From the NCBI GenBank assembly GCA_021432655.1, contig MU271683.1, positions 1-32,366 of the forward strand: a stretch of 32,366 nucleotides of DNA, given 5' to 3'. The position numbers were made by a program, and so were the translations under genes. Of this stretch, positions 5,530 through 26,606 are shown piece by piece (the first letter of the stretch is position 1; every line of letters starts with the position of its first letter). Below the pieces are notes generated by a model. It worked only from the letters and a program-made list of their open reading frames with translations, searched no databases and was not told the origin of the DNA. The stretch comes from Atractiella rhizophila (taxonomy: Eukaryota).

Positions 5530-8200
5530 AGCTCCTGATCAACAGCCAGCCAGCAATCAAGCATCAAATATCTCTTACCATTTGAATATATCCCAATCCA
5601 CCTCTAGTGGCCAGCCTCTCTTTATCCCTTCTGGTATCAAAGACCTAATGCTCGGTGATCAAAGCAGAACTGAGCATGCTTCCCCAATGCCAGCACCATA
5701 TGATTGGGATTTTTCATAGTTTCCTTCCTTTTGGCTACTTTGTCCATCGTCAGTACTTTTTGGCAAACAAGTCTATAGTCACTTTCCAAAGTCACATAGA
5801 TACAACTCACTCCACAGCAGGTTCTTCAGAGATACTCACATCATTCTGACCCTCTTCATCCACCTCTGGAGAAGTTCCAGCTTCTCCATTATCTTTCTAG
5901 AATGAGTAAGAAGCCCCTTCTCCAGACCCAATAGGCCACGAGCTGACAAGCAATGATGCACATTCTAGACCTGGATGTCTGCATTCAAGAAATTTGGGTG
6001 TAAGTCTCTACATGACATGTACTCTAGGAGAAGCTCACCCTGTCAGCTCTTCTGAGCATATTACCAATATGTCTGTTAAATCTGACCAAACACCTGGTCC
6101 ATCACTGAATGCCAAAGCAGCAAACTTCAATGAAACCTCTTACCTAACCTGCAAGTCACAAACCAAAATTTGTCCACATGTCATGCCAATGACTACATGT
6201 TGAATGGCCCCCAGAATATCAATCCTACACGGCTCCTCCTCTTTTGCCCCATTCAACACCTCCTTTGTCGACACTCTTGAAGAAGCATCGATCCATTTTG
6301 TCCAAACCTCTCCCAAACCTCCACTATATTTCACCAGACTCCTCTTAAGCAATAAATACCTTTGCTCAGACTGCTCCTTCTTTTTCCCCTTTCAGTTAGC
6401 AGCCTTCAGTTGAGGAAATGGATTTGTGTTAGAGGAGGGGGCAGAGTATGTTGCTGCTTGAGGCATAAGGAGGTTTGGCAGTAGGGCAGGGACAGATCGA
6501 CAGGTTATATTGCCCATGAGTCCGAGGGTAGGAGCAATGAAATTGTCGAGAACAGAATGAAATAGAGTGTGAACCCAGTGAAATATGTATATGTTTTAGA
6601 GGAAGTTATAACGTTCCATTATAAGTCAACATATTGCCATCTCTTTACTCACAATGAAGGACGTGTGCAAAGGAGTCTGTTGACATCGACTCAAGGCGAT
6701 CTACCGCATTGTCCACAAGACTGAACATCATAATGGAGGGAAGGCCGACTAAGATCTCTTGTCACGTACCAATATCATAATGTTTGAGGTAAGAATTCTT
6801 ACAGTAATGAGCAAGCAAACACAGTCTACCATCAGTGGCTTTAGAACAAAATCCTGAGCACAGACCAATGAAAAACTGATCCTTTAATGACAAGTTTCGT
6901 CAAGTCCACACATCATACAAATCTCACCACTTTCTCTGTCCACTCCAAATCTCCCAAACTGGCCCCAAGTCTGCCTATACATGCCAATAATTCCTGGCCA
7001 GAGTCTTCTTCAGCTTCCATCCAGTCTGTATTTGGTAACAGAGTGCTCTGCTGTGAACCCAGCAAAGGATGGAAGAGTGAGAGAAGGTATCGAAGACATT
7101 CCTGAGATTCTGATGAACTAAGGGATTGCAGGAGTAAGAGAAGGCATCGAAGACGTTCCTGGAAATCTGATGATCTAAGGGATTGCAGTCAATCCACAAA
7201 CTCCACCTCTTCTCGACGCAATCTCAGGCATTTCATTTGAATATTCACAGTGGCCCCGTTCGTGGGCAATTCTGCCATTGTGTCACCGCAAGTCTGCCAT
7301 GCATGGAAGAAAAAGCAGCTCCTGATCCTCTGAGGACTTGGATATCTCGCTGTTGTCCTTGTCCTCTGTTGTGTCACAGTTGTTGTTATTATCGTCCATA
7401 TCCTCATTTCCTATATATTCGTCATCTGATCGCAGAAAGTGATCACACCTATCTTTATCAGCTACTTCGGCCTCAACAACATCTTCCCCATCACCAAATC
7501 TGTCCTCATCTGTGTCCATAGAGTCCTCATCCATCAGCTCCTTGTCTGTGCCTCTCAATTGAGCTATTTCCACCACATTAGTCATCCCATCCCTCATCTG
7601 AGCTATAGCACCTTCTAACCCAACCCTATCATCCAGTCCTGCTACCTCTTTCTCCACTTCATAGGTTTCCCCTTCTGCAAGCCATACTCCCAACCCCTTG
7701 ACTTTTTTACCCATCAATTCCTTACTTGCACTACTCGAGATTCCAGGCAGAGACACTCCAGGCGCCACACCATCCAACAAGGCCGCTGGTGCGTGTTCAT
7801 CAACACTCTCTATACCTAAGTCTCCATCTCCACCTGTGGATATAGACCGTCCTCCCTAGTTTCTTCATCTCCTCTCTCCATAATGTTGGCCATGATGTTA
7901 TCTGGAGCTGGTGTCATAGACTTTATCAGCAAGTTGTTCGAAATGTTGAACAACATGGAAGACTGACCTTAATCCATTTGATAACCTACTTGGGACTATA
8001 TTTTAATTGTCGCTCCCACAAAGCTATCAATGGAGGCTTCCAGTGTACTTAGCAATAACATATCCACATTGTTTGGGGCCTTCAACATATACAAGGCTTC
8101 ATCTAGAAGGCTTAGGCTGTAAGTGAGGTAAGTTGGAAAAGTTAGAATTTAGACATGTAATCGAACAAGGCCATACCTGAGTAGAAGAGGTCTGCTCTTC
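5530..8200 (-). pseudogene. Degenerate CpG-depleted coding or repeat relic, including acidic ORF 7283-7780
   Basis: Broken minus-strand reading frames and scarce CG dinucleotides compared with neighbouring genes; no recognisable domain. Confidence 0.35.
7081..7188. repeat. Imperfect tandem duplication, about 57 bp x2
   Basis: gagaaggtatcgaagacattcctgagattctgatgaactaagggattgcag recurs as gagaaggcatcgaagacgttcctggaaatctgatgatctaagggattgcag. Confidence 0.8.
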
Positions 8201-8214
8201 ATCTCCTCATGAGG

Positions 8215-8545
8215 GACTATTTTTTAAAGAATTCTTTAAAAAAATTAAAAAATATGAATTTTATATATATGTCCTTATGAGATAAGAAATAAAAAATATG
8301 AGAAAAGAAATTATATAATTTATATATATTTATTACAAATGAATAAATAAATAATAAATAAATGAAATAAAATTAATAAAAGAAATAAAAAGAAATATAA
8401 CATAAAAAATATGAAAAACAACACAAAAATAATGATGAAAATTATGAGAAAAGAAATTATATTTTTCTCGAATTATTTTCTCAAAGATGTAAAATCTGTA
8501 TCTATAAATAAAAGATAATAAATAATTTATAATACATAAACATGA
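8215..8545. repeat. AT-rich low-complexity tract with (AAAT)n and TA runs
   Basis: Almost entirely A/T, e.g. aataaataaataataaataaatgaaataaaattaataaaag. Confidence 0.85.
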
Positions 8546-8764
8546 TAATGCGTAAAGTTCTGCTGAAGGAGAAAGAGATGGAAGAAATTGAGACCAAGTG
8601 GTGGTAGTTTGCAAGCATATTGTAGAGGTAGGAGTAGAGACTGAATCTTGAAGGCGCAGAGTTTTTACTGCATTGAAGAAGTGGGTGGAAAATATTTCGA
8701 GGCAGTAAAACCAAGGCTCGACTTATAAACAGACAAGGTAGTGAAAGTGCAGTCAGGATACCCC

Positions 8765-9254
8765 TGTTAGGGCTAACACTATGTGCGGTCGCCGATAGGC
8801 GATGCGTCTGTAGTGGAGGTAAACCTAAGAGAATAATATGGCATGAGAAGACTAACCTATAGTGGAGGTAAACCTAAGAGAATACTCTGAGGTCACCACC
8901 ACTACATCTCGATGTATATATACATATGTAAAAGCACTGCCATAAACTGTACCATAAGTTTCTTGAAACATGTAAGATAGCTAGATCAGGAAAGCAATAA
9001 AAGGAAAGCTCGGAAATAAGACATACTGAGTAGTACAAGCGAGAAAGGACAATAAAGCAATAATTGAGACGGTGCAGACCGGCGAAATGTATAAGGTTTG
9101 CTGAGCGGCGATTCGTGTGAGACAGGGGAAGGCGTCGATCAGCGAGAACGTGAGCAAAGCGGCGATGAGCAGGCGCGTGGTCCCATGGCATGGTAAAGTG
9201 GGTCACGTGACTTCAGATGGTGCATTTCGGTAATGCGTAGGGGCAAGCCTGACA
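8765..9254 (-). repeat. 3' LTR (490 bp)
   Basis: Direct repeat of 17208-17695 (about 14 substitutions and one 2-bp indel by eye). Contains a TATA palindrome at 8912-8925 and a duplicated tagtggaggtaaacctaagagaata motif. Confidence 0.97.
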
Positions 9255-9263
9255 ACACCCCCC
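9255..9263 (-). other. Polypurine tract
   Basis: Minus strand reads GGGGGGTGT immediately before the TGTCAGG start of the 3' LTR. Confidence 0.7.
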
Positions 9264-9378
9264 AAATTTCTGACTCGTGTACGTGAGTCACGGAATTTTA
9301 AAGTTAAGGTTTGCGGCTAGCTTGGGCGAAAAAATTTTCCAGTTCTACCACCATCACCCTCCGTCTACTCTTGCAAAA

Positions 9379-10895
9379 ATGTCGACCGATGCGCAACTCT
9401 TCGACTTTGTTCTGGCTAACAAGGATAGGAAGGAGAGCACCATTTTCTGGGACGTGGAGAAAGCGAAGGAGGTGAACTTCGGGCGTTTCGCCGATGTGTT
9501 GGAGTGGGGGAAAAGGTGCTACCCTCTGTATGTCAAATTTTGTGATGAAGTGCAGGCAGAGGTGAGTTTTCTTGTCTCATATATTTTGTGTGGTAACTCG
9601 TCGGCGATGGGAAGGTGCGAATGGCTTATGAGGCTGCCAAAGGTTTCGGTGATGGACGGGTTTTGTCATTTCCTCTGCATATGCCTGTGGAAGGCGTGCA
9701 GGCGTTGCGTGATGAACTTCGTCTTTGGGCCGAACAAGCGGCGCTCGTGGAGGAGGAAGCGGTGAGACTCGGGTTTCAGCCCTCCGAGTCGGCGAATGGC
9801 GACCCTGTTTTGCGGAGGAAAGAACGAGAGCTTTTCTTGTCCGACACGAAAAAACGCTTGGCGAAGGAAGAAGAGGAACGCAAACGGGTGGCGCTTGAAA
9901 ATAAACGACGAGCGGCGGAAGAAAATTTGCGTGCTCAAAAGTCGATTTCGGCGGTGAAAGGACCCGAGGTTGGGGTTGTGAGGACTCTATCTGACCATCT
10001 GGTTACTGCGACAACCTTTGTTCTGCCTGCAGCGTTGGGGGATCGAAATCCGTTCGCCGGTGCGCCGGTCGCCGAATTCCTAGTGCGCGACGGAAAAGTG
10101 CGAATCGGCGACAAGGAATTGGATGCGGCGAAATATCGTTACTTCTGGCCAGGTACCCGTGAGGCTTATTCTCATGCTGCGGCGAACATCAATCTGGGTG
10201 AATTGGAACTCGAATTGGTTATCATGACTCCTCGGGCGAACCCGCGCATCCTCCCTACGTTAACGAGCATCGGAACGCAGCGATGTAGTAATTGTACTGG
10301 AAAAATTCGAGCGGCGCCTGTCAAAGCGGCGAAAAAGAAGGCTAAGGCCGACAACGAATCTCAAGTGTGTGACTTCTCCGCTGGGTATGTTGCAACCGCG
10401 TTCGGTCGGGTTTGTTCGCGTTGTCACAGTTCGCGAAAGAGGTGTGAGGTCTTGCCTTTGGGTTATTTGCGGGAACTCTCTATGCTGGTCGTGATGTCGA
10501 CTACCTTCCATCCTAAACGCATAGGCGACGGGAGAAAACGTCCGTCAGCTTTCGCCGAGAGCAATTATGAGAATGTGTCGGACGCCGACGAGGACTCTCC
10601 CTCGCATTCTATGCTGAGCGCCGCCCGGTTGTACTCCGAAGCTTTCAGCATGGATTTCGCACGCACGATGCTCGAGGCCGCCAGGTTAAATGCGCAAGCG
10701 GCGGCGGATGCTCTTAAGGCCGCCGAGTTGCAAATGGAATTGTTTAAAAGGAGGCAGGATGAACGTGTTGCGGAGGATGGGGCCAGTGAGGGTTCTGTGC
10801 TGGAAGGTGTGATAGCCGATGTGACTGGTAGGGTGAGTTCATCTGTTTTTTCGGCGATCCGTCTGATTCTCCAGATGTTTGTTTAGGCATCGTAG
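9379..10895 (+). CDS. Spliced antisense accessory gene of the retrotransposon: coiled-coil plus variant Zn(II)2Cys6-like protein, about 469 aa
   Basis: ATG at 9379. Exon 1 is 9379-9561; intron 9562-9614 (GTGAGT..GTAAC..AAG, phase 0); exon 2 is 9615-10832; probable intron 10833-10886 (GTGAGT..CTGAT..TAG), then GCA TCG TAG. Motif CX2CX24CX14CX2CX6C at 10284-10445; E/K/R-rich helices on both sides. Confidence 0.8.
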
Positions 10896-11574
10896 GGCAC
10901 CTAACTCGTCGCCAGCTGTACAAAAGTCGTCGCATCGGCGAAATCGAGTTCCGACTCGGCGACTTGAAACCTTCGTTGGCTCAGGAGGCTTATGATAATT
11001 CCAATTTCGATGTGTATTCTGATTCTGTTTCGAGCAGTAGTGATAGTGAGGAATCTATTCGGAGCGGCGATTTTGAGCTTTGAAATGTATGTTTTGTGAC
11101 TCCGTATTAGCGGCGAATTGCCGGGCGGCGACAAGTGTAAATCATGTTGTGGTGGCATAAGGCATTGTGGTGAGTGGGGAGATCAATGGCAAAGTGAGTG
11201 ATGTGGGACTCACACTCCCCTGTCTAGGGGAGGACCCTCAGGCGTTCCTCCCACTAGCTACCCAAGCTTATTATGGAGCTCGCAACCAAATAGGCCTGGG
11301 CCACGCGTTCGTGGACACAACGCGCAGTATAACATATCGGCGGTTTGCATGTTCATCGCCGGTCTGTTTCCTTGTGGGATAGTGTGTTGTCGAGCGAACA
11401 AATATGGGAAACAAAAGGATAAAAGCAAAAAATAGAACACCATAAACATCAAAACCAGAACAGGGCGTGAGATGAGAGGGGGCGTTGTGTACCTCGCAAT
11501 TGAGGGATTTTTTGGGATTTGACCGGTGTTGTTTTCGTGCAATAAGCAACCGTTTTTGCGGAACTGGCGTGAGT

Positions 11575-11933
11575 GACTCACCAACAAACCGGTCGCCGAT
11601 CTGTCCGTTGAGGAACAGACCGGCGCCTCGCCTAGACCTATGTTCAACAATGTGACTAGGGATTCACCCAGCGAGGCATGTAGAGGAGTAGGACCTCTTA
11701 AAGTGAGGGGGAGGGGACCTCGCGATTGAGGGCAATTTTCGTAAATGCGACATTGGTGATGGTGCGAGAACGCAATGAGCATTCGTCTTTGACGGGCGAC
11801 GAATGGACTCACCAACGACCAAGTCGCCGACTTGTCCGTTGAGGAACAAGTCGGCGCCTTGCCTTGACCTAAGTATCAAAGACTAGGATTTCACCCGGCA
11901 AGGCATATAGGGGTGTTGGACCCCTTAAAGTGA
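11575..11933 (-). repeat. Two direct repeats of about 130 bp (11575-11706, 11806-11933) forming a conserved multi-stem RNA structure
   Basis: Differences between the copies are concentrated in paired positions that compensate each other (see findings). Confidence 0.8.
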
Positions 11934-14900
11934 AGAAGGCCCTTCAGCGCGTTTTCGTCGAAGGTTACGGAAACGCGCATTTGGGCGATTTTTGGCGGGT
12001 TCGGTATGGAATCGGGACGAACTGCGAGGGGATGTGCAGTGTGATAGTCTTTTATGGCATCTTGTGAGTTTTCTAGATCTGTGATGTTGATCCACTCGTC
12101 TTCAGATGGTGAATACCCTTTGTATCGAACGCGATATTTGAAAACTCTATTTCGGGTACCGAACCATTTCCCATCAACAATTTTTTCTACTTCCCATTCC
12201 TCAATTCCATTCACCAATTCCGGAGGAGGTTTGGGCAACTGGACTCTGCCCGGAATGTCGTCTTCGTTGACTTTTCGATTGCCACATAATGGATGTCGTC
12301 TTGGTTGACTTTTCGTATTAGCGTCCCACATGGAACACTGGATGTATCTTCCATGAGGATGGCAACTCGAGTTTGAAGGTTGAGGGGACCCACAACACTT
12401 GCAAAACGCGAAAAGGGCCATGCCATTTGTCGTCTAAACTTTTTGACAGGTCTCGTCGATTTGATGTTTTTCGCGCTCAACCAGACGAAATCGCCGACAT
12501 GATATTCGGGCGCCGGTGCGCGTTTTCTGTCATAATGTTTTGCCATGAGATCTGCTGCTTGCTCGAGTGCCGCTTGTGCTTCCCGGTCGGCGGTTTGCAT
12601 CTTTTCGACGAATTGCGCCGCCGCGGGAACGTCCTCGTCGGAGATGGGTTCAAAGGCCATGCGGGGATGTTGACCGCAATCGAGCGAAAATGGAGTTACG
12701 CCCGTCGCCGAACTGTACGCGATTGTTGCAGCTGCAAATTCATGCGTTGTGGCGTGCTTGCTCCAGCAATTTCATCTCTCTCCGCAGTGGCGGCATGGAG
12801 TTCGGCCCTTTTCCGAACTTAGCGATTGTTAGTGAATGCAGGGAGTCCTTCCACCCAATTATCCTGAAGGTGGTTGCAGAAAATGCGCAAATATTGTTCA
12901 ACCTCTTGGTTCATACGTTCAGTTTGACCATCAGTCTGCGGGTGATAGGCTGTCGATGGTGAACCTTTGATACCTAATAGGCGAAAAAGTGCAGATGTGA
13001 ATTTGGACACGAATTCTTTGCCTCGATCGAAAATTGCGACATCAAAGAGTCCGTGTAGCTTCCATACATGATCGCGAAAAAGTCTTGCAAGGCCTTCTGC
13101 ATCCATCGTCGAATGGGTAGGGATGAGATGGGTGCGTTTTGAAAGTCTGTCTACTATGACGAAAATCATGTCAAACCCCCCAGATTCTGGGAGTGGTCCA
13201 ACCAAGTCCATGCTGACAATTTGCCAGCGACGTGTGGGAATGTCATTTGGTTGCAAAAACCCGACAGGTGGGGAAGGAAAGTGTTTCGTTCTGTGGCAAG
13301 TGTGACAGGCGCCGACATAGCGGCGGACGTAGTGCGCTAAACCTGGCCACCAATAGTACCTTTTCACTAGAGCTGTCGTCGATTTTACGCCTGGATGACC
13401 GGCGATTTGCGAATCATGTAGGTCTTGCAAAATCGAGCGGCGAATTTCGTCGTCGCGGGGAATGTAGAGTTTTCCGCGAAAGTAGACAGCGCCATCGACT
13501 TCTTGCCACTCCCGTCGGCGAATTGCGTCGACTGGTTCGTCTAGGATCTCTCTCAAGGCTTTGACTACTTGTTCTTCTCGTTCAGGTACCTTTTTCACGC
13601 GTTCCAGTATACTCAACTCCGACGTTTGTCTAGTGAGCGCGACCGCGCTCCCAGTCGCGCTGATCGTGATACGATCCGTGTTGAAAAAACGTTCTGGGAG
13701 TAATACTACGTCAAAGTTATCGCAAGTCGCCGGTTTGTGATCCGGTCGCCGACTGAGCGCATCTGGTTTTGCGGAGTTCCGTCCAGGACGGTGTAAAAGT
13801 GTGAAGTTGAAGGATGCAAGTTCGGTGATCCAACGTGCCTGTCGGCGATTCAACTTCTGCGGCATTCTGAAATACTCGAGATTTTTGTGATCGGTCAGGA
13901 TCAGAAATGGCTCATCAGTACCTTGTAGGAGGTGTCTCCATTCTTGTAGTCCTCGCATAATCGCGAGCATTTCTTTGTCGTAGGTGTCGTAGTTCCTCTG
14001 GGCGGCGTCGAGCGATTTTGACACGAAACCGAGAGGATGAAACTTCCCATCTGACTTCATTTGCGACAAAACGGCGCCTGTCGCGAAATTTGACGCATCA
14101 ACTTCAAGCAAAAATCGTCCTATTTGTTCGGGATGTGCTAAAACGGGCGCCGAAGTCATGAGCCGCTTCAAAGCGGCGAACGAACGTTGCTGATCTACCC
14201 CCCAGACCCAGGAAATCTCTTTTTTGGTCAGTTCATATAGAGGTCTCACGATGTGACTAAATCTGTCACAAAAGCGGCGATAGAAATTAGCGAAACCAAG
14301 GAACATTTGGACTTCCTTCATGTTTTTCGGTTCCGGCCAATCCATCACTCCTGCAACCTTTACTGGATCCGGTTCAATCCCCCTGCTGGTAATGATCAAT
14401 CCTAGATACTCTACTTCGCTTTGACACCAGACACATTTCTGCAAATTTACGTAAAGTCCATTTTCGCGTAAAATTTGACAAACTTGTCGAACGCGTTCCC
14501 AGTGTTCTTCTTCAGTTTCTGTCGCAATTAGGATGTCGTCTATGTATATGAAGATGAACGCAGCGGCGATCATGGCGCGGAAAATAGAGTTCAGGAAAGC
14601 TTGGAAGGTCGCCGGTGAGTTGCAGAGTCCGAAATACATTACCAATGGTTCGAAAAGTCCCCGATTTGTGCGAAACGCCGCTTTGTGTTCGTCTCCTTCT
14701 TTGATACGAACGTTGTTGAACCCTTTCCTCAGATCAATCTTGCTGAAAAACTTCTTACCAGAAACCATGGAAAAGAGGTCAGCTTGAATAGGGAGTGCGG
14801 TCTTGTCTTTGACTGTGGCTTCGTTCAGCTTTCGATAATCGAAAAGGGGACGAAGTTCGGAGGAGTCTTTTTTATGCGTGAAAAAAACAGAAGCTCCATG

Positions 14901-15857
14901 TTCACCTGTGCTAGGACGTATACGACCGGCGCTTAGTTCGGCGTCAATGAACTGGTCGAGCGCCGCTTGTTCGTCTCTTTTCAAGGGGTAGACCGGGCCC
15001 GCATATGGTCGTGATTCGGGTATGAGGTTGATCGCGTGATCCCAAGGACGTCGGGGAGGAAGAGAAGTTTTGAATTTTTCGTCGTCGAAAATGTCCGCAA
15101 AATCGGCGATTTGCGTTGGTATTTCGACGACATTTTTTGGTCTCATCGCCGCTGCGTCTTTCGCCAGTTTCTGCGATTTTGTCATAGCGGCTCGTATCGA
15201 GGTAGATGATGGCGGGAATTTTTCGCGAGTGGTAGACACGTCATCTGCATTGCAACTGGTAGGGCAACGAGAGAACTCAACTTTCCCTGAGTCCCAGTCG
15301 ATCTCTGGGTTGTGGTGTCTTAGCCAGTCATGGCCTAAAATCATGTCGACAGTCCCTAACTCCGCTACAGCAAATTGCCAAACTTCATGGTGAGCGGCGA
15401 TCGAAATGGGCAAGTAAGTAACAGAATGGATGGATCCTCCTTGATTGAGGGATCCGTCGATGTTATAAACAGGTACTGGGGAGGGAAGTTGAGTGACAGG
15501 TAGGTTGTATGCCGAAACGAGTTTTGGAGAAATGAAAGAAGTAGTTGCGCCGCTGTCGACGAGCGCCGATGTGGCCTGTCGGCGATGGGAATGCGGATGG
15601 TGGAATGCGGTTCTGAGCTTCGTCTTCGAACTGACAAGGGATGCTGTTGTCGAGCGTAGGTGGACTTTGTCGTACATTTTTGCGACTTCTGCGCATCTTT
15701 GTCTCCAGGAGGGAAAACGCAATTTCGGGAATGGGGAGTCTTGTTCAGATGGGGGGAATACCGTGCTGGGCGGCATTTTGTTGGAAGTGATTTTAGATGA
15801 CATAAATGAATTGCAAGTCGGCGATGGGGACACTTCTTCCACCCACCGCCGTCCTAA
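11891..15857 (-). CDS. pol: Pol polyprotein (aspartic protease, RT, RNase H, integrase, chromodomain); frameshifted between about 12200 and 12850
   Basis: Protease LVDSGAT; RT FDYRKLN, KIDLRKGF, MYFGLCNSPATFQ, YIDD; RNase H VDAS, YDKEMLA, TDHKNL; integrase HDSQIAGHPG..CHTC, MDLVG, FDRG, HPQTDGQTER; chromodomain EEWEVEKIVD..KYRVRYKGYSPSEDEW at about 12040-12205. Confidence 0.95.
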
Positions 15858-15863
15858 AAATCC
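15781..15863 (-). promoter_or_regulatory. Putative -1 ribosomal frameshift signal (G GAU UUU plus downstream stem-loop or pseudoknot)
   Basis: Heptamer at 15857-15863 directly precedes the gag UAG and pol is in the -1 frame. Stem CGGCGGUGGG/CCCAUCGCCG starts 5 nt downstream. Confidence 0.8.
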
Positions 15864-17164
15864 TCCTCAAGATCTTTCGATTGGGTAACACTCGTTTTCG
15901 GCGACTGATCGGCGAATTGTCCAAATTGTCGTTCTTGGTGCATCATTTTCGAATCAAAATATTCTCCCTGGGCCCGAAGATATTGCTCCTTGTTCATAAT
16001 CGTTCTACACTCCCTTTCCCGGTGTCCTATCTTTTGGCATCGCCTGCAACGGGGAGGTCTAGACTTTGTCGCGTCGACTTCCATGTCATCGGGGTCTTTG
16101 GCCCTATGAGCGTGTGGAGCGGCGTTGGGTGACGGATCGGCGACCGGTGACAAGGCGGCGCTCGGTCGATACGATACGGGCGTTCTGTTCTCTCTGTGCT
16201 TTGAGGATTTTGAGTTGTCCCTTTTTGCAGAAAACGTATTTTGTGGTCCGTCTTTCGCCGATGGGATGTTTCGAAAGAAGGTTGAATGCGCAGATTCTTC
16301 CGCATCAATTCGCCGAGATTTTTCTTTCCAGTCTTCCAGCGATTTTGGGAACTCCCCTTGGGTTACTTTGAGATGTAGGGTAGGATTGAGTCCTCGTTTG
16401 AAGAAAAAGGTAAGGGCTTCATCATCAAAGTCAGCTTGATTTGCCAATTCTTCGAACTTGATGATGTAGGTTTCTAGGTTCCCCTTTTGCTGGAGGGAAG
16501 ATATTTTTGTCTGTGCAATGAGCTTGTGGTCTGTCTTGCAGAAACGCGCTTTGAACTCCGACAAAAATTGTTCCCACGCAATTTGTTCCTCATTTTCGAC
16601 AAGTCGGCGCAAAATCCCAGCGGCGAATTTTTCCGCATCTCCTTCTTTCATGTAAGAAAGGGTAAATAGGATTTTCGATTTTTCAGTCGGGAATTGACCT
16701 GGAACGGTAGAGGTGTAGACGTAAATTTCACGTAAAAATGTCGGAGCTGTGTTAGGAGCTCCTTTGAAGATTGAAGGTGGAGCGAGCTTGATTCCTGCAT
16801 ACGGTGCTACTTGGGCAGTCTGGGATATAGACGGAGGAGAATAAGTTTGAGGTATTGGGTCTGTTCGCGATAAGAAAGGAGAGGTGGTTCCACTGTCTCT
16901 AGGAGGGGGCAGTCTGGAGTCCAATAATTGCAAAATTCGATCGTTTGTGTTTTGGACGTCGGACCTCAGTTGCGCAATTTCGTTCGCATTCTGGGAGGTT
17001 TGCGCATTTTGTTGGTTGAAGCTTGATATGAGGTCTTGTTCGAGTTTTTTGAATTGCTTTTCAGTTGTGAGGTGTAGAGTTTGGAACATCCTTTCTAAGT
17101 GCTGGATGCGTTCTTCGCTCGTCGGCGGTTCGCGCGTTTCCATATCTCCCCAAATCTCCGACAT
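15854..17164 (-). CDS. gag: Gag (capsid plus CCHC zinc knuckle), 436 aa
   Basis: N-terminal coiled coil; PSIFKG..FPTEKSKILFTLSYM capsid region; LQQKGNLETYIIKF MHR-like segment; DPDDMEVD followed by CRRCQKIGHREREC (CX2CX4HX4C). Confidence 0.95.
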   Translation of the reverse strand: MSEIWGDMETREPPTSEERIQHLERMFQTLHLTTEKQFKKLEQDLISSFNQQNAQTSQNANEIAQLRSDVQNTNDRILQLLDSRLPPPRDSGTTSPFLSRTDPIPQTYSPPSISQTAQVAPYAGIKLAPPSIFKGAPNTAPTFLREIYVYTSTVPGQFPTEKSKILFTLSYMKEGDAEKFAAGILRRLVENEEQIAWEQFLSEFKARFCKTDHKLIAQTKISSLQQKGNLETYIIKFEELANQADFDDEALTFFFKRGLNPTLHLKVTQGEFPKSLEDWKEKSRRIDAEESAHSTFFRNIPSAKDGPQNTFSAKRDNSKSSKHRENRTPVSYRPSAALSPVADPSPNAAPHAHRAKDPDDMEVDATKSRPPRCRRCQKIGHRERECRTIMNKEQYLRAQGEYFDSKMMHQERQFGQFADQSPKTSVTQSKDLEEDF

Positions 17165-17195
17165 TTTTTATGTTTGGTTTCAAAATTTTAAGGAG

Positions 17196-17205
17196 AGAGT
17201 ATTCT
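17196..17205 (-). other. Self-priming primer-binding site (AGAAUACUCU)
   Basis: Lies 2 nt inside the 5' LTR boundary, lacks the TGG of tRNA-primed PBSs, and is exactly complementary to AGAGUAUUCU in the LTR (17320-17329). Confidence 0.75.
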
Positions 17206-17207
17206 TC

Positions 17208-17695
17208 TGTTAGGGCTAACACTATGTGCGGTCGCCGATAGGCGATGCGTCTGTAGTGGAGGTAAACCTAAGAATAGTATGGCATGAGAAGACTAACCTG
17301 TAGTGGAGGTAAACCTAAGAGAATACTCTGAGGTCACCACCACTACATCTCGATGTATATATACATATGTAAAAGCACTGCCATAAACTGTATCATAAGT
17401 TTCTTGAAACATGTAAGATAGCTAGATCAGGAAAGCAATAAAAGGAAAACTCGGAAATAAGACATACTGAGCAGTACAAGTGAGAAAGGACAATAAAGCA
17501 TTAATGGAGACGGTGCAGACCGGCGAAATGTATAAGGTTCGCTGAGCGGCGATTCGTGTGAGACAGGGGAAGGCGGCGATCAGCAAGAACGTGAGCAAAG
17601 CGGCGATGGGCAGGCGCGTGGTCCTATGGCATGGTAAAGTGGGTCACGTGACTTCAGATGGTGCGTTTCGGTAATGCGTAGGGGCAAGCCTGACA
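17208..17695 (-). repeat. 5' LTR (488 bp)
   Basis: TGTCAGG...CCCTAACA on the minus strand; direct repeat of 8765-9254. Confidence 0.97.
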
Positions 17696-18190
17696 CTATA
17701 GAGGTCCAGGTATTCGAGGCAAGAAGATATGTGAAGGCCTGCTGCGCCTGAAGCGGTCCTCCACATTGTAAACTTTGAGCCATCTGATCCTGTCACCCAT
17801 CCTCCGCAGAAAGCTCTCGATCTTCTCCTTCCTCCACTTTCTCGAACTCCATGGTTGGCTAAAGCTGACATTATCCATCCATTGTAAGCCTTCGATTGCA
17901 TTCAACACAATCTCCGCCTCCTTGACATTCCAAAAAGTGTCCATCTCCACTGTCATGACATTCTGTGAGCCAGCGATGACCTCCTTCACTTTCTCAACAT
18001 TCATTCTTTGGTAAAACCTCAGTTTGTCCTACAATGTCCAGCACCAGGATAGAGTTTCAACCACTTATATTTTGCCACCACAAAATCAGGTTCACCTCAT
18101 TAAGAAGCTGAAACAGTTCTCCAGAGCTGGCGTACTTTTGAGGAAATGGTACTATCGTTGAGGAAACTGAAAATGCAAGAGAGGCAGGCT
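17696..18190 (-). pseudogene. Truncated paralog of the LRR/RNI-like gene at the window end, cut by the LTR
   Basis: 17696-17797 aligns with 32265-32366 (tatagaggtc.agg.attcgaggc..ctttgagc..tctgatcctgtcac; LEYLDLY vs LEFLDLY). Frameshifted and stops at the LTR. Confidence 0.75.
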
Positions 18191-18193
18191 CTA

Positions 18194-18505
18194 CACTGCC
18201 ATAAACTGTAACGTATGTTTCTTGAAACACGTAAGATGGCTAGATCCGGAAAGCAATAAAGGGAATACTCGGAAACAAGATATACTGAGTAGTACGAGTG
18301 AGAAAGGTTAATAAGGCGAAAATGGAGACGGTGCAGACCGGTGAAATGTATAAGGTTTGCTTAGTGGCAATTCGTGGGGAAAGCGGCGGACAGCGCGGGC
18401 ATGAGCAATGCGGTGATGGATAAGCAGGTGATCCTATGATGTGGCAAAGTAGGTCACGTGACTTCATATGGTGCATTTCGGTAATGTGTAGGGGCAAGCC
18501 TGACA
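18194..18505 (-). mobile_element. Truncated LTR (U3 part only) of the same family
   Basis: cactgccataaactgt...ggggcaagcctgaca matches the last 320 bp or so of the LTRs; decayed, with a small deletion. Confidence 0.9.
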
Positions 18506-18598: not shown

Positions 18599-19026
18599 TG
18601 TCAGGTTTGCATCTTAAGCAAATCGACGCCCGTTCGCCGGATTGCGTCTCCTATCGCCCATTTACGTTCTCTGCGAATCGGCGCCCGTTCGCTACTCTGC
18701 GGCTCCCGTCGCCTATTTGCGCCCATTTGTGCCTGCATCACCTCTTAGCCCTTTGTGTCTATTCTCCTCTTATTAACTCCCGCGTAATCCCACTGTCACT
18801 TCCCCCTTTTAGTTCTCTTATGTGTTTCATCTGCTCTCCTCTACACTCTGTGGCAGTGTTATTCCACTTGTATATATAGATCAGAGGGTAGTGGAGGTGA
18901 CCTTAGAATATTCTCTTAGGTTTATCTCCACTACAGGTTAGTCTTCATGTCATATCATGCACTTAGGTTTATCTCCACTACAGACGCATCACCCATTGGC
19001 GACCACATATAGTGTCAGCCCTAACA
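18599..19026 (+). mobile_element. Solo LTR of a related subfamily with 5-bp TSD GTAAG
   Basis: TGTCAGG...GCCCTAACA flanked by GTAAG at 18594-18598 and 19027-19031. The last 140 bp or so match R/U5 of the main family; U3 differs. Confidence 0.9.
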
Positions 19027-21793: not shown

Positions 21794-24452
21794 TCATTCA
21801 GAAGCTGATTCCATGACAAAATGAGGTGGGCTGAGATTTATCTCGCTCTCCCCGGCAGCATGTGAAGATCTTTGATCACTCCTCTTGGGCACTTTGCTCC
21901 ACCAGTCCAGGGTTGTCCACTCAACAATGCCTTTATCGTCTCCCTCAGCTGTCTCCAGATTAAGATTGTCGAGTAACTCGATGTGGTCCCTGAGATTCCC
22001 CCTTTTTTCAGGCTCGACCTCTAAACCCACAACCACTATGGCATATATGCTCTGCGGTAAAATGTTATCTGTGTTGTTAGATGAAGTGAGTCCTGTTCTC
22101 TGCAAAACATCCTCAGGTACTGGTGCAGGACACAGTTTCTTTCGTTTCTCAAGTATAAAGCAGGCTGTTACTGCGAATGCAAAGATATCCGATGCAAACG
22201 TCCAGGTTGGTGTTCTTGTGCAGATTTCCGGAGCATGCCACCATTGATAATGAGGAACGCTGGCTCTGAACGATGTTGCAGCCTCATCAACAGTCTGCCC
22301 TTCGCCAAAGTCAATTAAGAGTGCCGTATCTTCTGAATCATAACCATCTGGCTGATACAAGAATGTGTTTTGGGTCACCATGATATTATTCAGGTGAAGG
22401 TCCCTACAACAATTTGATCCAAAGTTATGCTAGTCCTGAAAGGTACAAACCTGTGAATGATGCCTCGTTTGTGCAGTGAGTGGAGACCATTGGCAATGCT
22501 ACTTAGCATACCAATCACCAGACTCCAAGATTGATGGAACGACGTATGGGGCAGCTTCTCCTCTATGAAATCCATTATGCGACCTGCATTGGCGAACTGT
22601 GAGACAAGGACTTGGGTCTCACCAGCTGCTGATAATGAGGCAGAGGTATTTGGTAGGGTGACACTGGAAATGCCAAAGAACTCGGCTGTACCAACTGCTG
22701 AACTGCCGACCCCAATGTTCATACGCAACTGGGAGCTGATGTAAGCCCTTCCCATCGTCCTAGAGAATTGCACATGCTTACCTCTTGTTGGAACTTTAAC
22801 TCGTCCTGCAAACTGTTTCCCAGGTTCGACTGGAGGACTTTAACAATAACCCCAACTTCCTTTTTCCCCTGACCTCTAGACAACAGGATGCTGCCTGGCC
22901 TCATCCAGGTCGCTCTGTACACCGTCCCATTCTTGCCCTTGCCTATGTAGTTCCAATCAATTTTCAATTGGCACGACGGTATGTGCCTGAGAGGATGAGT
23001 CAACATTCGATCAGAAGCCTGGTATTGTTGATATTCCGGTGCTGGCTGCATGCTCGCCTCGGTCACGTTTCGAAAATATTCCAGGGCCCCAATATCGGTC
23101 TCGAATTGTTGAAGATTTCGGTACTGCATCCCAGGGATAGTTTCAAGAAGAAGAAGCTCGCCATTCAAAGAGTTCCAAGTAAGACAGGAATCCGTCTGAT
23201 ATTGGTGGTTAGAGTAACTACAAGTTCAAGTTGTCAGTGCTCACCCAAGCTTTCCAAAAGTCTGATTGCCTGTCAAAGAGTCTGGTATCTCCTACAGGCC
23301 TCATGGCAAACACCACCTTCCCATTTGGACTAAAATGGCCAGGAAAGTACTTATTATTGTCCAGACAGCACCCAAACACCTCATCCTCTGTATGGAGCAT
23401 GTGCCCAGTAAATGGAGTCACCATGCCAGGATCCCACTCAACCCAGCGTAGATCTTTCGCTTTAAGATTGAGGTGGTCCATATATGGAATGTTCATGGCT
23501 GAGGTGATTTGTTTGATCTGATCTATTGGTACCTCATGCAGATCGTCAGGAGATAGAATGCCAATACTATGTTTTATAGCCTGTGTCACCAGTGACCAGT
23601 CTCAGATCGGTGCAGGATGGTTAGTACAATTTTACAAACCTCTTGCATGGTACTAGCCCTTGTGGACCGTTCATGATCGCGGTAAACAGATTCCACAATG
23701 TCTAATACTGACCCACCCATCCCCTGATGCCATTGATTGATCTGATCTGTTGTTGGTAACTCGCAGAGATTGTCAGGAGATAGAATGCCGATACGTTGCA
23801 TGATCTCTTCCACATTCTCAAATCGGACAGGATGATTACTCGGCCTGGTAGACTGGTGATAAAAACTGTAAATCGATTTGAAAATGTCGAATGTTGGACC
23901 CTTGCACAACTCCTGCTGCCACACTAGATGATCTCTTTTCCACATCCAGTGAATGAGCCTCCAGTGATCTTTGTCATCTGGGTAGATTGCAGGGTGAAGA
24001 CAATCAACCGATTCATTGGCGACTAATACAGGGAGCTCCGGATTGGCGCTCTTCACTGCATCAGAACGGAATTGGTTCTCTGCGTGGCCACGTCCGATGG
24101 CCCTCCAGTGCAAGTAGTCACCATAAGCTCGTTCGAAGCTCCCTCCGTAATCTTTCTTGACGAGATCCTGTTGCAGTTCCTCTCTCAGAGGCACGAAGAA
24201 TTTCTCCACCCAAACCCATCGCTGAAAGATGTCGTCGATGTCCAATGGCCAGGCAGTGGGTAGGGTTGCAGCAGCGGCGGGTTCAATGATTTCGCACAGG
24301 AGTTTCCTCTCGAACGCAGCCAGGGGCACAAAGAATGATTTCATGATAAGTGAACAGTCCAGTTTCTGTACGGTTTGCTCGATGGTGGCTTGCTGGTGTC
24401 GAAATGGGGGCAAAACACCATTTGGGCATCGGAACATATAAACGGCTGACAT
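21794..24452 (-). CDS. Protein kinase (TKL-like) with a long uncharacterised N-terminal region, 5 exons, about 815 aa
   Basis: ORF pieces splice across short GT-AG introns (e.g. 23581-23639, phase 0). IGKGKNGTVY, VIVK, spliced HRDLHLNN, IDFG, WHAPE and SDIFAF are all present. Confidence 0.85.
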
Positions 24453-24632
24453 GATCTAGGAGCCTTCAATGGATCAGGGTTAACAGATGCTGAGGGGTGA
24501 ACGGCAGTCGTAATTCCACCAACCTTCTCCCAAACCGTCCAGGGACCGACGCTTCTTTTAAATATCAACATTCTCGACCCTGCAAGTTGTCAGGGCCATC
24601 CTCAAACTTCTTTTAATGCTTTTAATGCAGGC

Positions 24633-26606
24633 ATGGCCGACGTTGTAGGCAGCCTCACTGCGAGTAAGACGGGCGTGGAGACTATCGTGTACATCATCAG
24701 AACAGTTCGAAATGTCCAACGATTTGAGAGAGAGTGCCAGGGGATTCAAAAGCTCGTGGGGCTCATACAAAATGTGTTCGATTCCTTCAAGGCAGCAAAT
24801 ATACCCTTAGAGACCACAGATCGTGTTCAGAACAATTTATGCGAAGTCAAGGATTTCGTTATCGACTGCACACAGAAATCAAGTTTCGCACAGAGAGCGT
24901 GGGAGGTGATTTGGAGAAAAAGGCTCCCTAGGCTGATGGCGGGCTTACAGGAAACAGTGCTTTGGTTTCTCATGGACGCTGCTGTAAGTACTTCTCTCTG
25001 GTTCATTGATTCTTGGAATGACGGAGAGCACTTAGGCTCACGGCGTGATGGTTCAAGAACTGCTCCTGGACACTAGTCGAAATATTCATGACACTGTGAT
25101 CGGCATGAAGGCTACACTGGACCAACTCGCCGCCAAGGCTGTCATTGAGGAGAAAGGACAGATTAGCAATAGAACTGCTGCTGAATGGGACATTGAGTTT
25201 CCCCTGGAGGACAAGCGTCTCAAAGTGTCTCGAGACGACAAAGGAACGCTAGCGGGGACCGTTCAGTACCACGGCTTAACTAGCCAGGTCATCCTCCATT
25301 CCATCAGCAATCACCAGAAGGAGGATCCCTTTGGCGGCGGTCCTCGCCATGTCAGAATATACTCCAAGCTTTCTTCAGCTAACACCGCCGTCGAACGGTT
25401 TCACGGCCTGGCAGAGCTTGAGACGGGGAATTACTACGTGGTGATGGAAGATCTAAGGTCCGCCAAGTCGCTCGGAGCCTCCCTGCAGGATACGGCCAAA
25501 TTTGAGGACGTGAAGCTCAGAATACGGATGGCGTATGAATTGGCGAAAGCGATTGCCTTCCTACATTCCGTGCGAATCTTAGTCAGGTCACTTTCCGATG
25601 AAACTGTCAAGTTAGTACAAAGGGACGGCAAATGGAAACCTGTCTTGACGAATCTTGGAGAAGCCAGACTAGTAAGGCTGCCGTGCAACCCATAAATAAC
25701 CTTTCATGCTCACGGGTACAGTTATTTGAGGATACCTTGGAACAAAATGCAGATATGCGCTTCGAGGCTCCAGAGTACCACGATAGCCGCGTTCATAGTC
25801 AGGAAACTGATACATGGAGGTGCGTTGAGAAAGAATGCTCTGCCGGATATAGAAATAATGATTCGTGTGACAGCTTCGGAGTATTACTCTGGGAACTTCT
25901 GAATCTCAGACATCCGTTCGGGCATCCTGAACCCGTCTTCCGCTCACGCGACGCTGAGGCGTACCCAGCAGTGTCAATTATACAACAATTACAGAATGGC
26001 GGAATACCATGGACAAGGAAGGATAACACGCCGTTCCCTGGCCTTTCCGTGCTTGTCACCAGCTGCTGTCATCCTGAGCCTCGCTTGCGACAACCGATGT
26101 CATCAGTCGTGCGATCGCTTTGCATGCTCATGCGCGACGATCCAGCCTTAATACCGACGCCGAGCCAGGATCAAGAAGAGACGAAAGTACGAGTCCATTC
26201 ATACTTGGCGAAGAGAAAGTTGGTAGACAAACGGGATGTTGATGTCCTTCGAGATTTATCAGACAAAGGCGACCCCGTCGCTTCCGCCATTCTCGGGGCG
26301 GCTTACTGGCGGGGAATGGTGGCGTTGGAGGACGAGGATTTGGACGGCGAGACTATTATAACCTTTTCCCCTGAAGATCGAGATATTGGTACGTAACTTG
26401 TTATGTTATCGTCCAGAAGTAAGGCATAATAATAACCCTAACCAATGACAGAGAGGAAAGCTCTGCGTGCGCTTCCACTCCTGACGTTTGCTGCAACTGC
26501 AGGGAAAGGAGAGGACAAGTCAACTGTCAAGGATATAACCCTCATCCATAAAAAGCTGTGCACAATATATGGAAATCACTACCAACAATTGGCTTCTGTA
26601 CGTTAG
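24633..26606 (+). CDS. Pseudokinase with N-terminal helical-bundle (MLKL/HeLo-like) domain and C-terminal Sel1/TPR-like helices, 5 exons, about 585 aa
   Basis: Exons about 24633-24983, 25036-25671, 25722-25819, 25874-26388 and 26452-26606. The kinase C-lobe is recognisable (RMAYELAKAIAFLHS, RFEAPE, TDTWSFGVLLWE, P..RQPM) but HRD is VRS, DFG is NLG and there is no VAIK lysine. KGDPVASAILGAAYWRG is Sel1-like. Confidence 0.8.

What the first reader, a model, noticed from the sequence alone, without database searches (positions are those of the whole stretch)
21794..26606. Head-to-head active kinase plus MLKL-like pseudokinase: candidate fungal necroptosis-like module
Seen: the two ATGs (24452 minus, 24633 plus) are only 180 bp apart. 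One gene keeps every catalytic motif (GxGxxG, VIVK, HRDLHLNN, DFG). The other has lost all of them (VRS, NLG, no beta-3 Lys). It begins with about 120 aa of amphipathic helices (IVYIIRTVRNVQRFERECQGIQKLVGLIQNVF..LCEVKDFVIDCTQKSSFAQRAWEV), then brace-like helices, and ends in Sel1-like helices. Known: MLKL is a 4-helix bundle plus brace plus pseudokinase activated by RIPK3; fungal HeLo/HELL domains are MLKL-related; fungal immune and incompatibility genes often occur as adjacent sensor/effector pairs. Inference: a co-regulated kinase/executioner or toxin/antidote pair in an accessory, transposon-rich region. The NTD assignment is by eye only.
Basis: partly seen in the sequence, partly recalled or inferred. 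Interest (0 to 1): 0.8.

Follow-up and report, generated by a model that had tools for sequence, protein, structure and literature searches.

The report
Fungal MLKL-like pseudokinase with linked kinase
Two back-to-back fungal genes encode a likely active kinase and a dead kinase carrying a helical domain that resembles the membrane-killing part of the animal cell-death protein MLKL, and the same pairing recurs in other fungi, so they probably work together.

Summary
The window is a whole 32,366-bp contig of Atractiella rhizophila. Two divergent genes start 180 bp apart. P0001 (584 aa, + strand) has a four-helix N-terminal domain, one long linker helix, a pseudokinase and C-terminal helices. 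P0003 (816 aa, - strand) has a ~440-aa region of no known family and a near-canonical kinase.

An AlphaFold2 model of the N-terminal domain (pLDDT 76) matches the MLKL executioner domain best in three PDB comparisons. The margin over designed helical bundles is under 1 Z, and no Pfam MLKL_N, HeLo or RPW8 profile reaches threshold.

The new result is linkage. In 4 of 5 metagenome loci that encode relatives of P0001, a relative of P0003 lies head-to-head upstream, at 25-40% protein identity.

The best reading is a conserved two-gene module in which the kinase regulates an MLKL-architecture executioner. Binding, phosphorylation and toxicity are untested. Fungal HELL-plus-(pseudo)kinase proteins are already noted in a 2025 review, but three literature searches found no linked partner kinase. 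Verdict: new variant of a known kind, interest 0.65.

The parts
24633..26606 (+). Gene for P0001 (584 aa), an MLKL-architecture pseudokinase. Exons 24633-24983, 25036-25671, 25722-25819, 25874-26388, 26452-26606.
   Evidence: Hand model equals database protein P0001. tblastn back to the window.
24633..24983 (+). Exon 1: N-terminal four-helix domain (aa 1-117).
   Evidence: AF2 model, four helices, pLDDT 76. Best PDB matches are the MLKL executioner domain. ESM Atlas nearest clusters carry MLKL_N. 30 relatives at E<=1e-3.
25054..25185 (+). Long linker ('brace-like') helix, aa 124-167.
   Evidence: Full-length AF2 model shows helix H124-167, but pLDDT is only 43-58.
25195..26132 (+). Pseudokinase domain (aa ~171-448; includes introns 2 and 3).
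25561..25608 (+). Degenerate catalytic loop (aa 293-308; VRS in place of HRD, no Lys, no Asn).
   Evidence: Alignment to PKG1 and RSK2. Degenerate in all relatives seen.
25651..25659 (+). NLG in place of DFG (aa 323-325).
25734..25736 (+). Thr334 in the activation loop, conserved in every relative where the loop could be read. Candidate phospho-acceptor (inference).
   Evidence: Invariant column T334 in A1. Also present in L002 and in the L005 reading frame.
26151..26603 (+). C-terminal helical region (aa 455-584), absent from animal MLKL.
   Evidence: Helices in the model, pLDDT <50 after aa 517. Conserved in P0002, P0015 and P0017. No Sel1 hit.
24453..24632 (.). 180-bp shared intergenic region between the two start codons (presumed bidirectional promoter).
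   Evidence: Start-to-start distances in related loci are about 130-305 bp in three of them; the start in the fourth (L004) is unresolved.
21794..24452 (-). Gene for P0003 (816 aa), the partner kinase. Exons 24452-23640, 23580-23245, 23195-22782, 22728-22451, 22403-21794.
   Evidence: Hand model equals database protein P0003.
23640..24452 (-). Exon 1 of P0003: conserved N-terminal region of no known family (aa 1-271).
   Evidence: No Pfam, PDB-sequence or Atlas match. Homologous to ORFs upstream of P0001 relatives in L001, L002 and L004 and, via L002, in L005.
21983..22949 (-). Kinase domain of P0003 (aa 466-754; includes introns 3 and 4).
   Evidence: Pfam PK_Tyr_Ser-Thr 7.9e-22, Pkinase 3.8e-15. 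PDB sequence matches to IRE1, TNIK and LIMK1.
22385..22455 (-). Catalytic loop HRDLHLNN (aa 613-620), split by intron 4. His replaces the usual Lys.
   Evidence: The same HRDLH is seen in the L005 partner (HRDLHPAN).
22304..22312 (-). DFG (aa 645-647).
22839..22841 (-). Beta-3 Lys (K502 of VIVK).
22926..22943 (-). Glycine-rich loop GKGKNG (aa 468-473).

Best explanation
This is a conserved, divergently transcribed two-gene module of Dikarya fungi.

Gene 1 (P0001) has the MLKL architecture: an N-terminal four-helix bundle of the MLKL_N / HeLo-like / RPW8 kind, a long linker helix, and a catalytically dead kinase domain. It also has a family-specific C-terminal helical region. Gene 2 (P0003) joins a ~440-aa N-terminal region of unknown fold, the likely regulatory or sensing part, to a probably active Ser/Thr-type kinase with an unusual HRDLH catalytic loop.

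The most likely mechanism is inferred by analogy with RIPK3-MLKL and was not tested. The partner kinase binds and/or phosphorylates the pseudokinase; the invariant activation-loop Thr334 is the candidate site. This releases the four-helix bundle to oligomerise and attack membranes, giving regulated cell death of an immune or incompatibility type. The short shared promoter keeps the two in step.

Shown here: gene models, loss and retention of motifs, predicted fold, family distribution, conserved linkage. Inferred: physical interaction, direction of regulation, membrane activity.
For: (1) Architecture. Pfam finds a kinase domain at aa 202-444 of P0001. HRD, the catalytic-loop Lys and Asn, and the DFG Asp are replaced. 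The catalytic loop is degenerate in all relatives examined: P0002, P0015, P0017, P0036 and loci L001, L002, L003, L005.

(2) N-terminal fold. AF2 with 27 sequences gives four helices, pLDDT 76.2 and pTM 0.61.
- Foldseek against 350,542 PDB chains ranks MLKL executioner domains 1st and 3rd (6d74; 6zvo_A with prob 0.99, TM 0.69, rmsd 3.2 over 116 columns). NRG1.1 CC-R ranks 6th.
- In the second look at 983 chains, 8 of the top 10 rows are MLKL (5), NRG1.1 (2) or NRC2 (1).

(3) Independent leads.
- ESM Atlas nearest clusters by features (score 0.89) carry PF22215 MLKL_N in 26-62% of members, together with DUF7792, RPW8 and MCAfunc.
- 15 of 29 N-terminal-domain relatives give sub-threshold DUF7792 hits. 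RPW8, SesA and MCAfunc are each hit by 2 of 29.

(4) Linkage. Of 5 metagenome loci encoding P0001 relatives, 4 have a P0003 relative on the opposite strand immediately upstream. tblastn E-values are 6e-9 (L001), 2e-10 (L002), 2e-7 (L004) and 7e-25 (L005).
- In L005 both the N-terminal region (E 6e-29 to the L002 partner) and the kinase domain are present. The kinase again reads HRDLH in the catalytic loop.
- Start-to-start distances are 180 bp here and about 130-305 bp in three of the four linked loci.

(5) The matching part of the partner is its non-kinase N-terminal region. Two word-index searches of 5.8 billion proteins found that region only in P0003 itself. Chance adjacency is therefore not credible.

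(6) The partner keeps the Gly loop, beta-3 Lys, HRD, DFG and APE.
Against: No Pfam MLKL_N, HeLo, Helo_like_N, SesA or RPW8 hit on P0001 or P0002 at E<=1. A profile of 27 N-terminal-domain sequences finds no MLKL or HET-s chain among PDB sequences at E<=10.

The linker helix and the relative domain orientation are low-confidence (pLDDT 43-58; rmsd 16.6 to 4btf).

The N-terminal helix of P0001 is only moderately hydrophobic: Kyte-Doolittle 19-residue maximum 1.19, against 1.84-1.97 in P0015 and P0017.

The partner has His in place of the catalytic-loop Lys, so its activity is not assured. One of 5 loci (L003) shows no partner in its 860 bp of upstream sequence. No P0003 paralogue was found that could pair with the paralogue P0002.

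Nothing was tested on interaction, phosphorylation, expression or toxicity.
Confidence: 0.5

Rival explanations
1. A conserved, co-regulated signalling pair with no lytic function. The four-helix bundle is a generic interaction or regulatory module, as in the Cbl TKB four-helix bundle or other helical adaptors. The pseudokinase is a scaffold or allosteric regulator of the neighbouring kinase.
Against: Three PDB comparisons put MLKL first. The ESM features point to MLKL_N / RPW8 clusters. The domain order is colinear with MLKL. The N-terminal 25 residues are the most hydrophobic stretch of the N-terminal domain in P0015 and P0017.
Confidence: 0.25
2. A toxin/antidote or guard arrangement. The kinase keeps the executioner switched off by inhibitory phosphorylation or binding. 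Loss or perturbation of the kinase, for example by a pathogen effector or by non-self alleles, releases killing.
For: Tight head-to-head linkage with a shared promoter, conserved in 4 of 5 loci. This is what one expects if the two must always be inherited and expressed together. The pair sits on a repeat-rich small contig. Fungal incompatibility systems are often closely linked gene pairs (review PMC10197012, passages read).
Against: No data on the direction of regulation. No sign of allelic polymorphism could be examined. The analogy with RIPK3-MLKL and the conserved activation-loop Thr favour activation at least as much.
Confidence: 0.12
3. The adjacency has no functional meaning: two unrelated genes that have stayed neighbours by descent.
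For: Only five related loci could be examined, all unnamed metagenome contigs that might come from related fungi. One lacks the partner. The paralogue P0002 has no detectable partner paralogue.
Against: The linked pairs are only 25-40% identical in protein sequence, yet keep orientation and a short spacer. Named full-length relatives come from Pucciniomycotina, Eurotiomycetes and Sordariomycetes, so the family is old. Gene order is rarely kept over such distances without selection (general knowledge).
Confidence: 0.05

Closest known systems
[quoted passage not shown]
   Different: No sequence-profile match to MLKL_N. The pseudokinase is not specifically MLKL-like. There is an extra ~130-aa C-terminal helical region. 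The partner has no RHIM core and is not detectably RIPK-like. The partner is genomically hard-wired head-to-head, which to my knowledge RIPK3 and MLKL are not (recalled).
Fungal HeLo / HeLo-like (HELL) / basidiomycete MLKL-like (BaMLKL) domains of HET-S, HELLP and NLR N-termini
   Same: Fungal helical N-terminal domains grouped with the MLKL 4HB (PMC9815663 and PMC12881547, passages read). The review states that some HELL domains sit in proteins with a kinase/pseudokinase domain (PMC12881547, figure-legend passage). The hydrophobic N-terminal helix in some family members is a HeLo-like trait (recalled).
   Different: No Pfam HeLo, Helo_like_N, SesA or Goodbye hit on P0001. Only 2 of 29 relatives give sub-threshold SesA, and one Atlas structure row is a cluster with PF17111 in 11% of members. 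No amyloid motif or NLR partner was seen; the regulator here is a linked kinase.
Plant MLKLs and RPW8 / CC-R domains (NRG1, ADR1)
   Different: Different kingdom. No significant sequence similarity was shown. No linked partner kinase is described for plant MLKLs in the text I saw.

Membership tests
MLKL-type executioner (4HB-brace-pseudokinase) | N-terminal four-helix bundle superposable on the MLKL executioner domain | tested here: met
MLKL-type executioner (4HB-brace-pseudokinase) | Brace helices linking the bundle to the pseudokinase | tested here: inconclusive
   One long helix, 124-167, is predicted, but at pLDDT 43-58. The domain orientation differs from 4btf (rmsd 16.6).
MLKL-type executioner (4HB-brace-pseudokinase) | C-terminal kinase fold lacking catalytic residues | tested here: met
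   Pfam kinase domain. HRD replaced by VRS, the loop Lys and Asn lost, DFG replaced by NLG. Degenerate in all relatives seen.
MLKL-type executioner (4HB-brace-pseudokinase) | Sequence-profile membership in MLKL_N (PF22215) | tested here: not met
   No Pfam hit on aa 1-170 of P0001 or P0002 at E<=1. Only an ESM Atlas lead (score 0.89, clusters with MLKL_N in 26-62% of members).
MLKL-type executioner (4HB-brace-pseudokinase) | Activation by an upstream kinase; membrane permeabilisation | not testable with these tools
   Complex prediction unavailable. No wet-lab data.
Fungal HeLo / HeLo-like (HELL) domain | Match to Pfam HeLo (PF14479) or Helo_like_N (PF17111) | tested here: not met
   No hit at E<=1 on P0001 or P0002, or at E<=0.1 on the 29 relatives. 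One Atlas structure row with PF17111 in 11% of members. The accession-to-name mapping is partly recalled.
Fungal HeLo / HeLo-like (HELL) domain | N-terminal hydrophobic helix with transmembrane propensity | tested here: inconclusive
   Kyte-Doolittle 19-residue maximum is 1.19 in P0001 and 1.06 in P0002, but 1.97 in P0015 and 1.84 in P0017, all starting at residues 4-6.
Fungal HeLo / HeLo-like (HELL) domain | Control by an amyloid motif or NLR partner | tested here: inconclusive
   Only a recalled RHIM-core pattern was scanned: 0 matches in 5 proteins. No NLR gene was recognised in the window. Other amyloid motifs were not scanned.
RIPK3-like activator kinase (for P0003) | Catalytically competent kinase domain | tested here: inconclusive
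   Gly loop, VIVK, HRD, DFG and APE are present. The catalytic-loop Lys is His, conserved in the L005 partner. Activity was not tested.
RIPK3-like activator kinase (for P0003) | RHIM motif | tested here: not met
   No [IV]Q[IVLC]G core in P0003. The motif definition is recalled.
RIPK3-like activator kinase (for P0003) | Closest kinase relatives are RIPKs | tested here: inconclusive
   The top 60 of 108 PDB sequence matches are IRE1, TNIK, MAP4K4, LIMK1, Src-family and others; no RIPK is among the rows shown.
Sel1 / TPR-like repeats (C-terminus of P0001) | Match to the Pfam Sel1 repeat profile | tested here: not met
   No Sel1 hit at E<=1 on P0001 or P0002. P0017 has only TPR_12 at E 0.046. The region is helical but at low confidence.

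The most novel reading that the evidence does not exclude
Fungi possess a hard-wired necroptosis-like cassette. A sensor kinase, with a new ~440-aa N-terminal sensing domain and an HRDLH-type kinase, directly switches on a four-helix-bundle/pseudokinase executioner encoded across a shared 130-300-bp promoter. This would be a RIPK3-MLKL-type axis that works without RHIM amyloids. It is scattered patchily through Basidiomycota and Ascomycota, so kinase-triggered 4HB killing would be older or more often reinvented than the animal and plant cases suggest.
Probability: 0.3. Interest if true: 0.85.

Novelty: new variant of a known kind. Interest (0 to 1): 0.65.

Why it matters
MLKL-type killing is well understood in animals. 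Plants have MLKL homologues. In fungi the related HeLo and HELL domains are known mainly as amyloid- or NLR-controlled effectors.

The 2025 review notes that some HELL domains sit on kinase/pseudokinase proteins. It also calls for work on how far necroptosis is conserved in fungi (PMC12881547). A family in which the MLKL-architecture gene is consistently paired with one particular kinase gene offers a concrete candidate activator. That turns 'is there a RIPK3-like step in fungi?' into a two-gene experiment.

It also defines a conserved partner N-terminal domain with no known family, a possible new sensor.

Tried and rejected
Tools that gave nothing
- No whole genome is held for this window. 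The neighbourhood of the paralogue P0002 and of the named relatives (Aspergillus calidoustus, A. pseudodeflectus, Gaeumannomyces hyphopodioides) could not be inspected.
- Earlier findings of this scan: nothing by place, words or sequence.

Sequence searches that led nowhere
- A profile of the N-terminal domain (A2) against PDB sequences gave only designed helical proteins and coiled coils, best E 0.0044, with no MLKL or HET-s.
- HET-s HeLo and plant MLKL structures do not appear among the 50 rows listed. This does not exclude them.
- The P0003 N-terminal region has no Pfam family and only one PDB sequence hit, a synthetic protein at E 0.13. The ESM Atlas gave no usable feature hit, and its structure rows have TM <=0.30 on a poor model.
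- A profile search for named P0003 relatives (A4) returned only P0003 itself. Only the 8000 candidates sharing most words were scored, so this is weak evidence.
- A first attempt to scan metagenomes with A2 failed because it has no conserved 7-10-column stretch. A1 was used instead.

Ideas rejected
- The pseudokinase as a recent duplicate of its neighbour: rejected, best pairwise BLASTP E 0.19.
- P0007, a plant NLR, hit the N-terminal query through 10 stretches in its LRR region. I judged it spurious and left it out of all alignments.
- The flanking ORFs I scanned (11 ORFs of 95-147 aa between 17.7 and 31.6 kb, and 12 larger ORFs across the window) gave no Pfam family other than the retrotransposon and one CoA_binding_2 hit.

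Literature
- A search for 'DUF7792' found 0 papers.


Full report
What is there

The window is an entire 32,366-bp contig of the basidiomycete Atractiella rhizophila. The protein database lists both gene products as 'kinase-like protein [Atractiella rhizophila]' on a contig of exactly this length. Reading the sequence, I built intron-exon models for both genes.

The + gene has exons 24633-24983, 25036-25671, 25722-25819, 25874-26388 and 26452-26606. The - gene has exons 24452-23640, 23580-23245, 23195-22782, 22728-22451 and 22403-21794. Their translations are identical to the database proteins P0001 (584 aa) and P0003 (816 aa). The start codons are separated by 180 bp.

The partner kinase, P0003

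Pfam finds a kinase domain at aa 466-754 (PK_Tyr_Ser-Thr 7.9e-22, Pkinase 3.8e-15). It has a glycine loop (GKGKNG, 468-473), the beta-3 Lys (VIVK), HRD, DFG and APE.

The catalytic loop reads HRDLHLNN and aligns to HRDLKPQN of IRE1, so the loop Lys is His. The same HRDLH occurs in a distant relative (HRDLHPAN in locus L005). It is thus a family trait rather than decay. I call the kinase probably active, not certainly.

The first ~440 residues match nothing. There is no Pfam family. There is no meaningful PDB sequence hit. The ESM Atlas gives no usable match.

The pseudokinase, P0001

Pfam finds a kinase domain at aa 202-444. In alignments to PKG1 and RSK2, the catalytic loop YRDLKPEN corresponds to VRSLSDET, and DFG corresponds to NLG. 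The beta-3 position reads VILH by my reading of the sequence.

The catalytic loop is degenerate in all relatives seen: paralogue P0002, P0015/P0036 from Aspergillus, P0017 from Gaeumannomyces, and loci L001, L002, L003 and L005. This is an old pseudokinase family. An activation-loop Thr (T334) is conserved wherever the loop could be read. Proposing it as a phospho-acceptor is my inference.

The N-terminal domain of P0001

A full HMMER scan of 1.84 billion representatives with exon 1 (117 aa) found 30 proteins at E<=1e-3, 9 of them at E<=1e-10. Most are 100-170-aa fragments from metagenome or Logan assemblies. In the alignment they run through the whole domain, and the column just past its end is almost always Val, after which the fragments diverge. 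I read that Val as a GT splice donor read through, which would mean the intron position is conserved.

The full-length named members are from Aspergillus calidoustus, A. pseudodeflectus and Gaeumannomyces hyphopodioides. The family is therefore small and scattered across Pucciniomycotina, Eurotiomycetes and Sordariomycetes. One hit, P0007, is a plant NLR matched through its LRRs. I dropped it as spurious.

AlphaFold2 on the 27-sequence alignment gives four helices (2-26, 32-52, 59-80, 86-116), with mean pLDDT 76.2 and pTM 0.61. Three comparisons with the PDB agree on the best match.
- Foldseek ranks MLKL executioner domains 1st and 3rd (6d74; 6zvo_A with prob 0.99, TM 0.69, rmsd 3.2 over 116 columns). 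NRG1.1 CC-R ranks 6th. However, E-values are 0.37-0.46 and nothing reaches E<=0.001.
- In the second look at 983 chains, 8 of the top 10 rows are MLKL (5), NRG1.1 (2) or NRC2 (1).

Sequence profiles do not settle the question. P0001 and P0002 have no MLKL_N, HeLo, Helo_like_N, SesA or RPW8 hit at E<=1. The family profile finds no MLKL or HET-s among PDB sequences.

Weaker leads point the same way. Fifteen of 29 relatives give sub-threshold DUF7792 hits (best 25.1 bits against a cut-off of 27). RPW8, SesA and MCAfunc are each hit by 2 of 29. The ESM Atlas nearest clusters by features (0.89, a lead only) carry MLKL_N in 26-62% of members, together with those same families.

The N-terminal ~25 residues are the most hydrophobic stretch of the N-terminal domain in five of the seven family members checked. 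They reach Kyte-Doolittle 1.8-2.0 in P0015 and P0017 but only 1.2 in P0001.

Whole-protein model of P0001

The model has pLDDT 66.6 and pTM 0.53. It shows the bundle, then one long helix (124-167, pLDDT 43-58), the kinase fold (171-448) and C-terminal helices (460-581, under 50 after 517).

The architecture is therefore colinear with MLKL, while the pseudokinase itself is not specifically MLKL-like. 'Sel1-like' for the C-terminus is not supported by Pfam.

Linkage, the decisive new evidence

A scan of metagenome contigs with two family-specific peptide patterns returned 5 loci that encode P0001 relatives, at 27-41% identity. tblastn with P0003 finds its relative on the opposite strand, immediately upstream, in 4 of the 5. 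The hits are L001 (aa 21-139, E 6e-9), L002 (aa 39-209, E 2e-10), L004 (aa 27-206, E 2e-7) and L005 (aa 331-695, E 7e-25). These E-values are relative to the five loci only.

In L001, L002 and L004 the contig ends inside the partner gene, so only its N-terminal region is seen. L005 has 10 kb of upstream sequence. There both the N-terminal region (E 6e-29 to the L002 partner) and the kinase domain are present.

Start-to-start spacers are 180 bp in the window, about 305 bp in L001, about 264 bp in L002 and 128-224 bp in L005. In L004 the start is unresolved. L003 shows no partner in its 860 bp of upstream sequence, the first 400 nt of which are 17-18% GC.

The matching segment is the partner's non-kinase region, which two word-index searches of 5.8 billion proteins found only in P0003 itself. 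Chance adjacency can therefore be dismissed. The two kinase domains are not recent duplicates of each other (best BLASTP E 0.19).

Two limits apply. The five loci are unnamed and may not be independent lineages. I also found no P0003 paralogue that could pair with P0002.

Surroundings

A complete Ty3/gypsy chromovirus-type LTR retrotransposon lies at 8830-17695. Its LTRs are 96-97% identical, and it carries gag, protease, RT, RNase H, integrase and a chromodomain on the - strand. Further LTR-like and dispersed repeats are present. None of the other ORFs I scanned on either side of the pair has a Pfam family. 'Repeat-rich small contig' is fair. 'Accessory region' cannot be tested without the genome.

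How it most likely works

Shown: an MLKL-architecture protein and a probably active kinase form a conserved head-to-head gene pair with a short shared spacer.

Inferred, by analogy with RIPK3-MLKL (as summarised in PMC12881547, sections read): the kinase binds and/or phosphorylates the pseudokinase, with T334 the candidate site. This frees the four-helix bundle to oligomerise on membranes and kill the cell. The partner's unknown N-terminal region would supply the trigger.

Three rivals remain: a non-lytic kinase/pseudokinase signalling pair; an antidote or guard arrangement in which the kinase restrains the executioner; and meaningless synteny. No interaction, expression or toxicity evidence could be obtained.

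Comparison with what is known

Fungal HeLo, HELL, Goodbye and basidiomycete 'BaMLKL' N-terminal domains are established as MLKL-4HB relatives, mostly on NLRs or amyloid-controlled effectors (PMC9815663, passages; PMC10197012, passages). [quoted passage not shown] The architecture as such is therefore not new.

Three full-text searches found no description of a conserved, genomically linked partner kinase for such proteins. They were: MLKL + fungi + pseudokinase + HeLo, 15 papers; HeLo-like + kinase domain + fungal + necroptosis, 12 papers; and MLKL-like + fungal + kinase + adjacent, 7 papers. I read passages of only three of those papers, and no supplements.

The partner is not a RIPK. The RHIM-core pattern, as I recall it, is absent, and no RIPK is among the PDB rows shown.

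Verdict

I rate it a new variant of a known kind, with interest 0.65.

Noticed in passing
window 8830-17695: Complete Ty3/gypsy (chromovirus-type) LTR retrotransposon on the - strand. The LTRs (8830-9254 and 17271-17695) are 96-97% identical. ORFs carry gag, aspartic protease, RT, RNase H, integrase and a chromodomain.
   Followed up: partly
window 18089-18505; 4463-4649 vs 18842-19026: A third, diverged LTR-like copy (62-82% identity) lies just beyond the element. A separate ~185-nt dispersed repeat pair has 79-84% identity.
   Followed up: no
window 23509-23567 vs 23733-23794: A ~60-nt direct duplication (83-90% identity) inside P0003. It gives a repeated IGILSPD... peptide at aa 221 and 277, on either side of intron 1, in the region between the N-terminal domain and the kinase.
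   Followed up: partly
window 24633-24983 (aa 1-117 of P0001): The N-terminal family has two invariant cysteines (C35, C79) and a conserved W-E-V-x-W-x-x-R-L-P motif (W90, E91, W94, P99) across 27-30 sequences. Their role is unknown.
   Followed up: no
window 24984-25035 and 25672-25721; L002 2361-2422: Intron positions appear conserved across the family. Metagenome gene callers give exon-1 fragments that diverge just past a near-invariant Val at the end of the domain, which I read as a GT donor read through. The intron after ...ARL recurs in L002.
   Followed up: partly
window 3187-3696 (+): An ORF with a CoA_binding_2 domain hit (E 9.5e-12, partial). It is probably an exon of an unrelated metabolic gene.
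   Followed up: no
window 8001-9000: A sharp AT-rich kilobase (GC 0.32, against about 0.42-0.55 elsewhere) that runs into the 5' LTR at 8830.
   Followed up: no
L003 1-400: The one related locus without a detectable partner has 17-18% GC in its first 400 nt. This is possibly a RIP-degraded or AT-isochore region where the partner would be expected.
   Followed up: partly
P0002 (paralogue, other contig of 102,810 bp): A. rhizophila has a second copy of the MLKL-like gene (65% identity, 629 aa). It has a Lys-rich insertion between the pseudokinase and the C-terminal helices. No second copy of the partner was found.
   Followed up: partly
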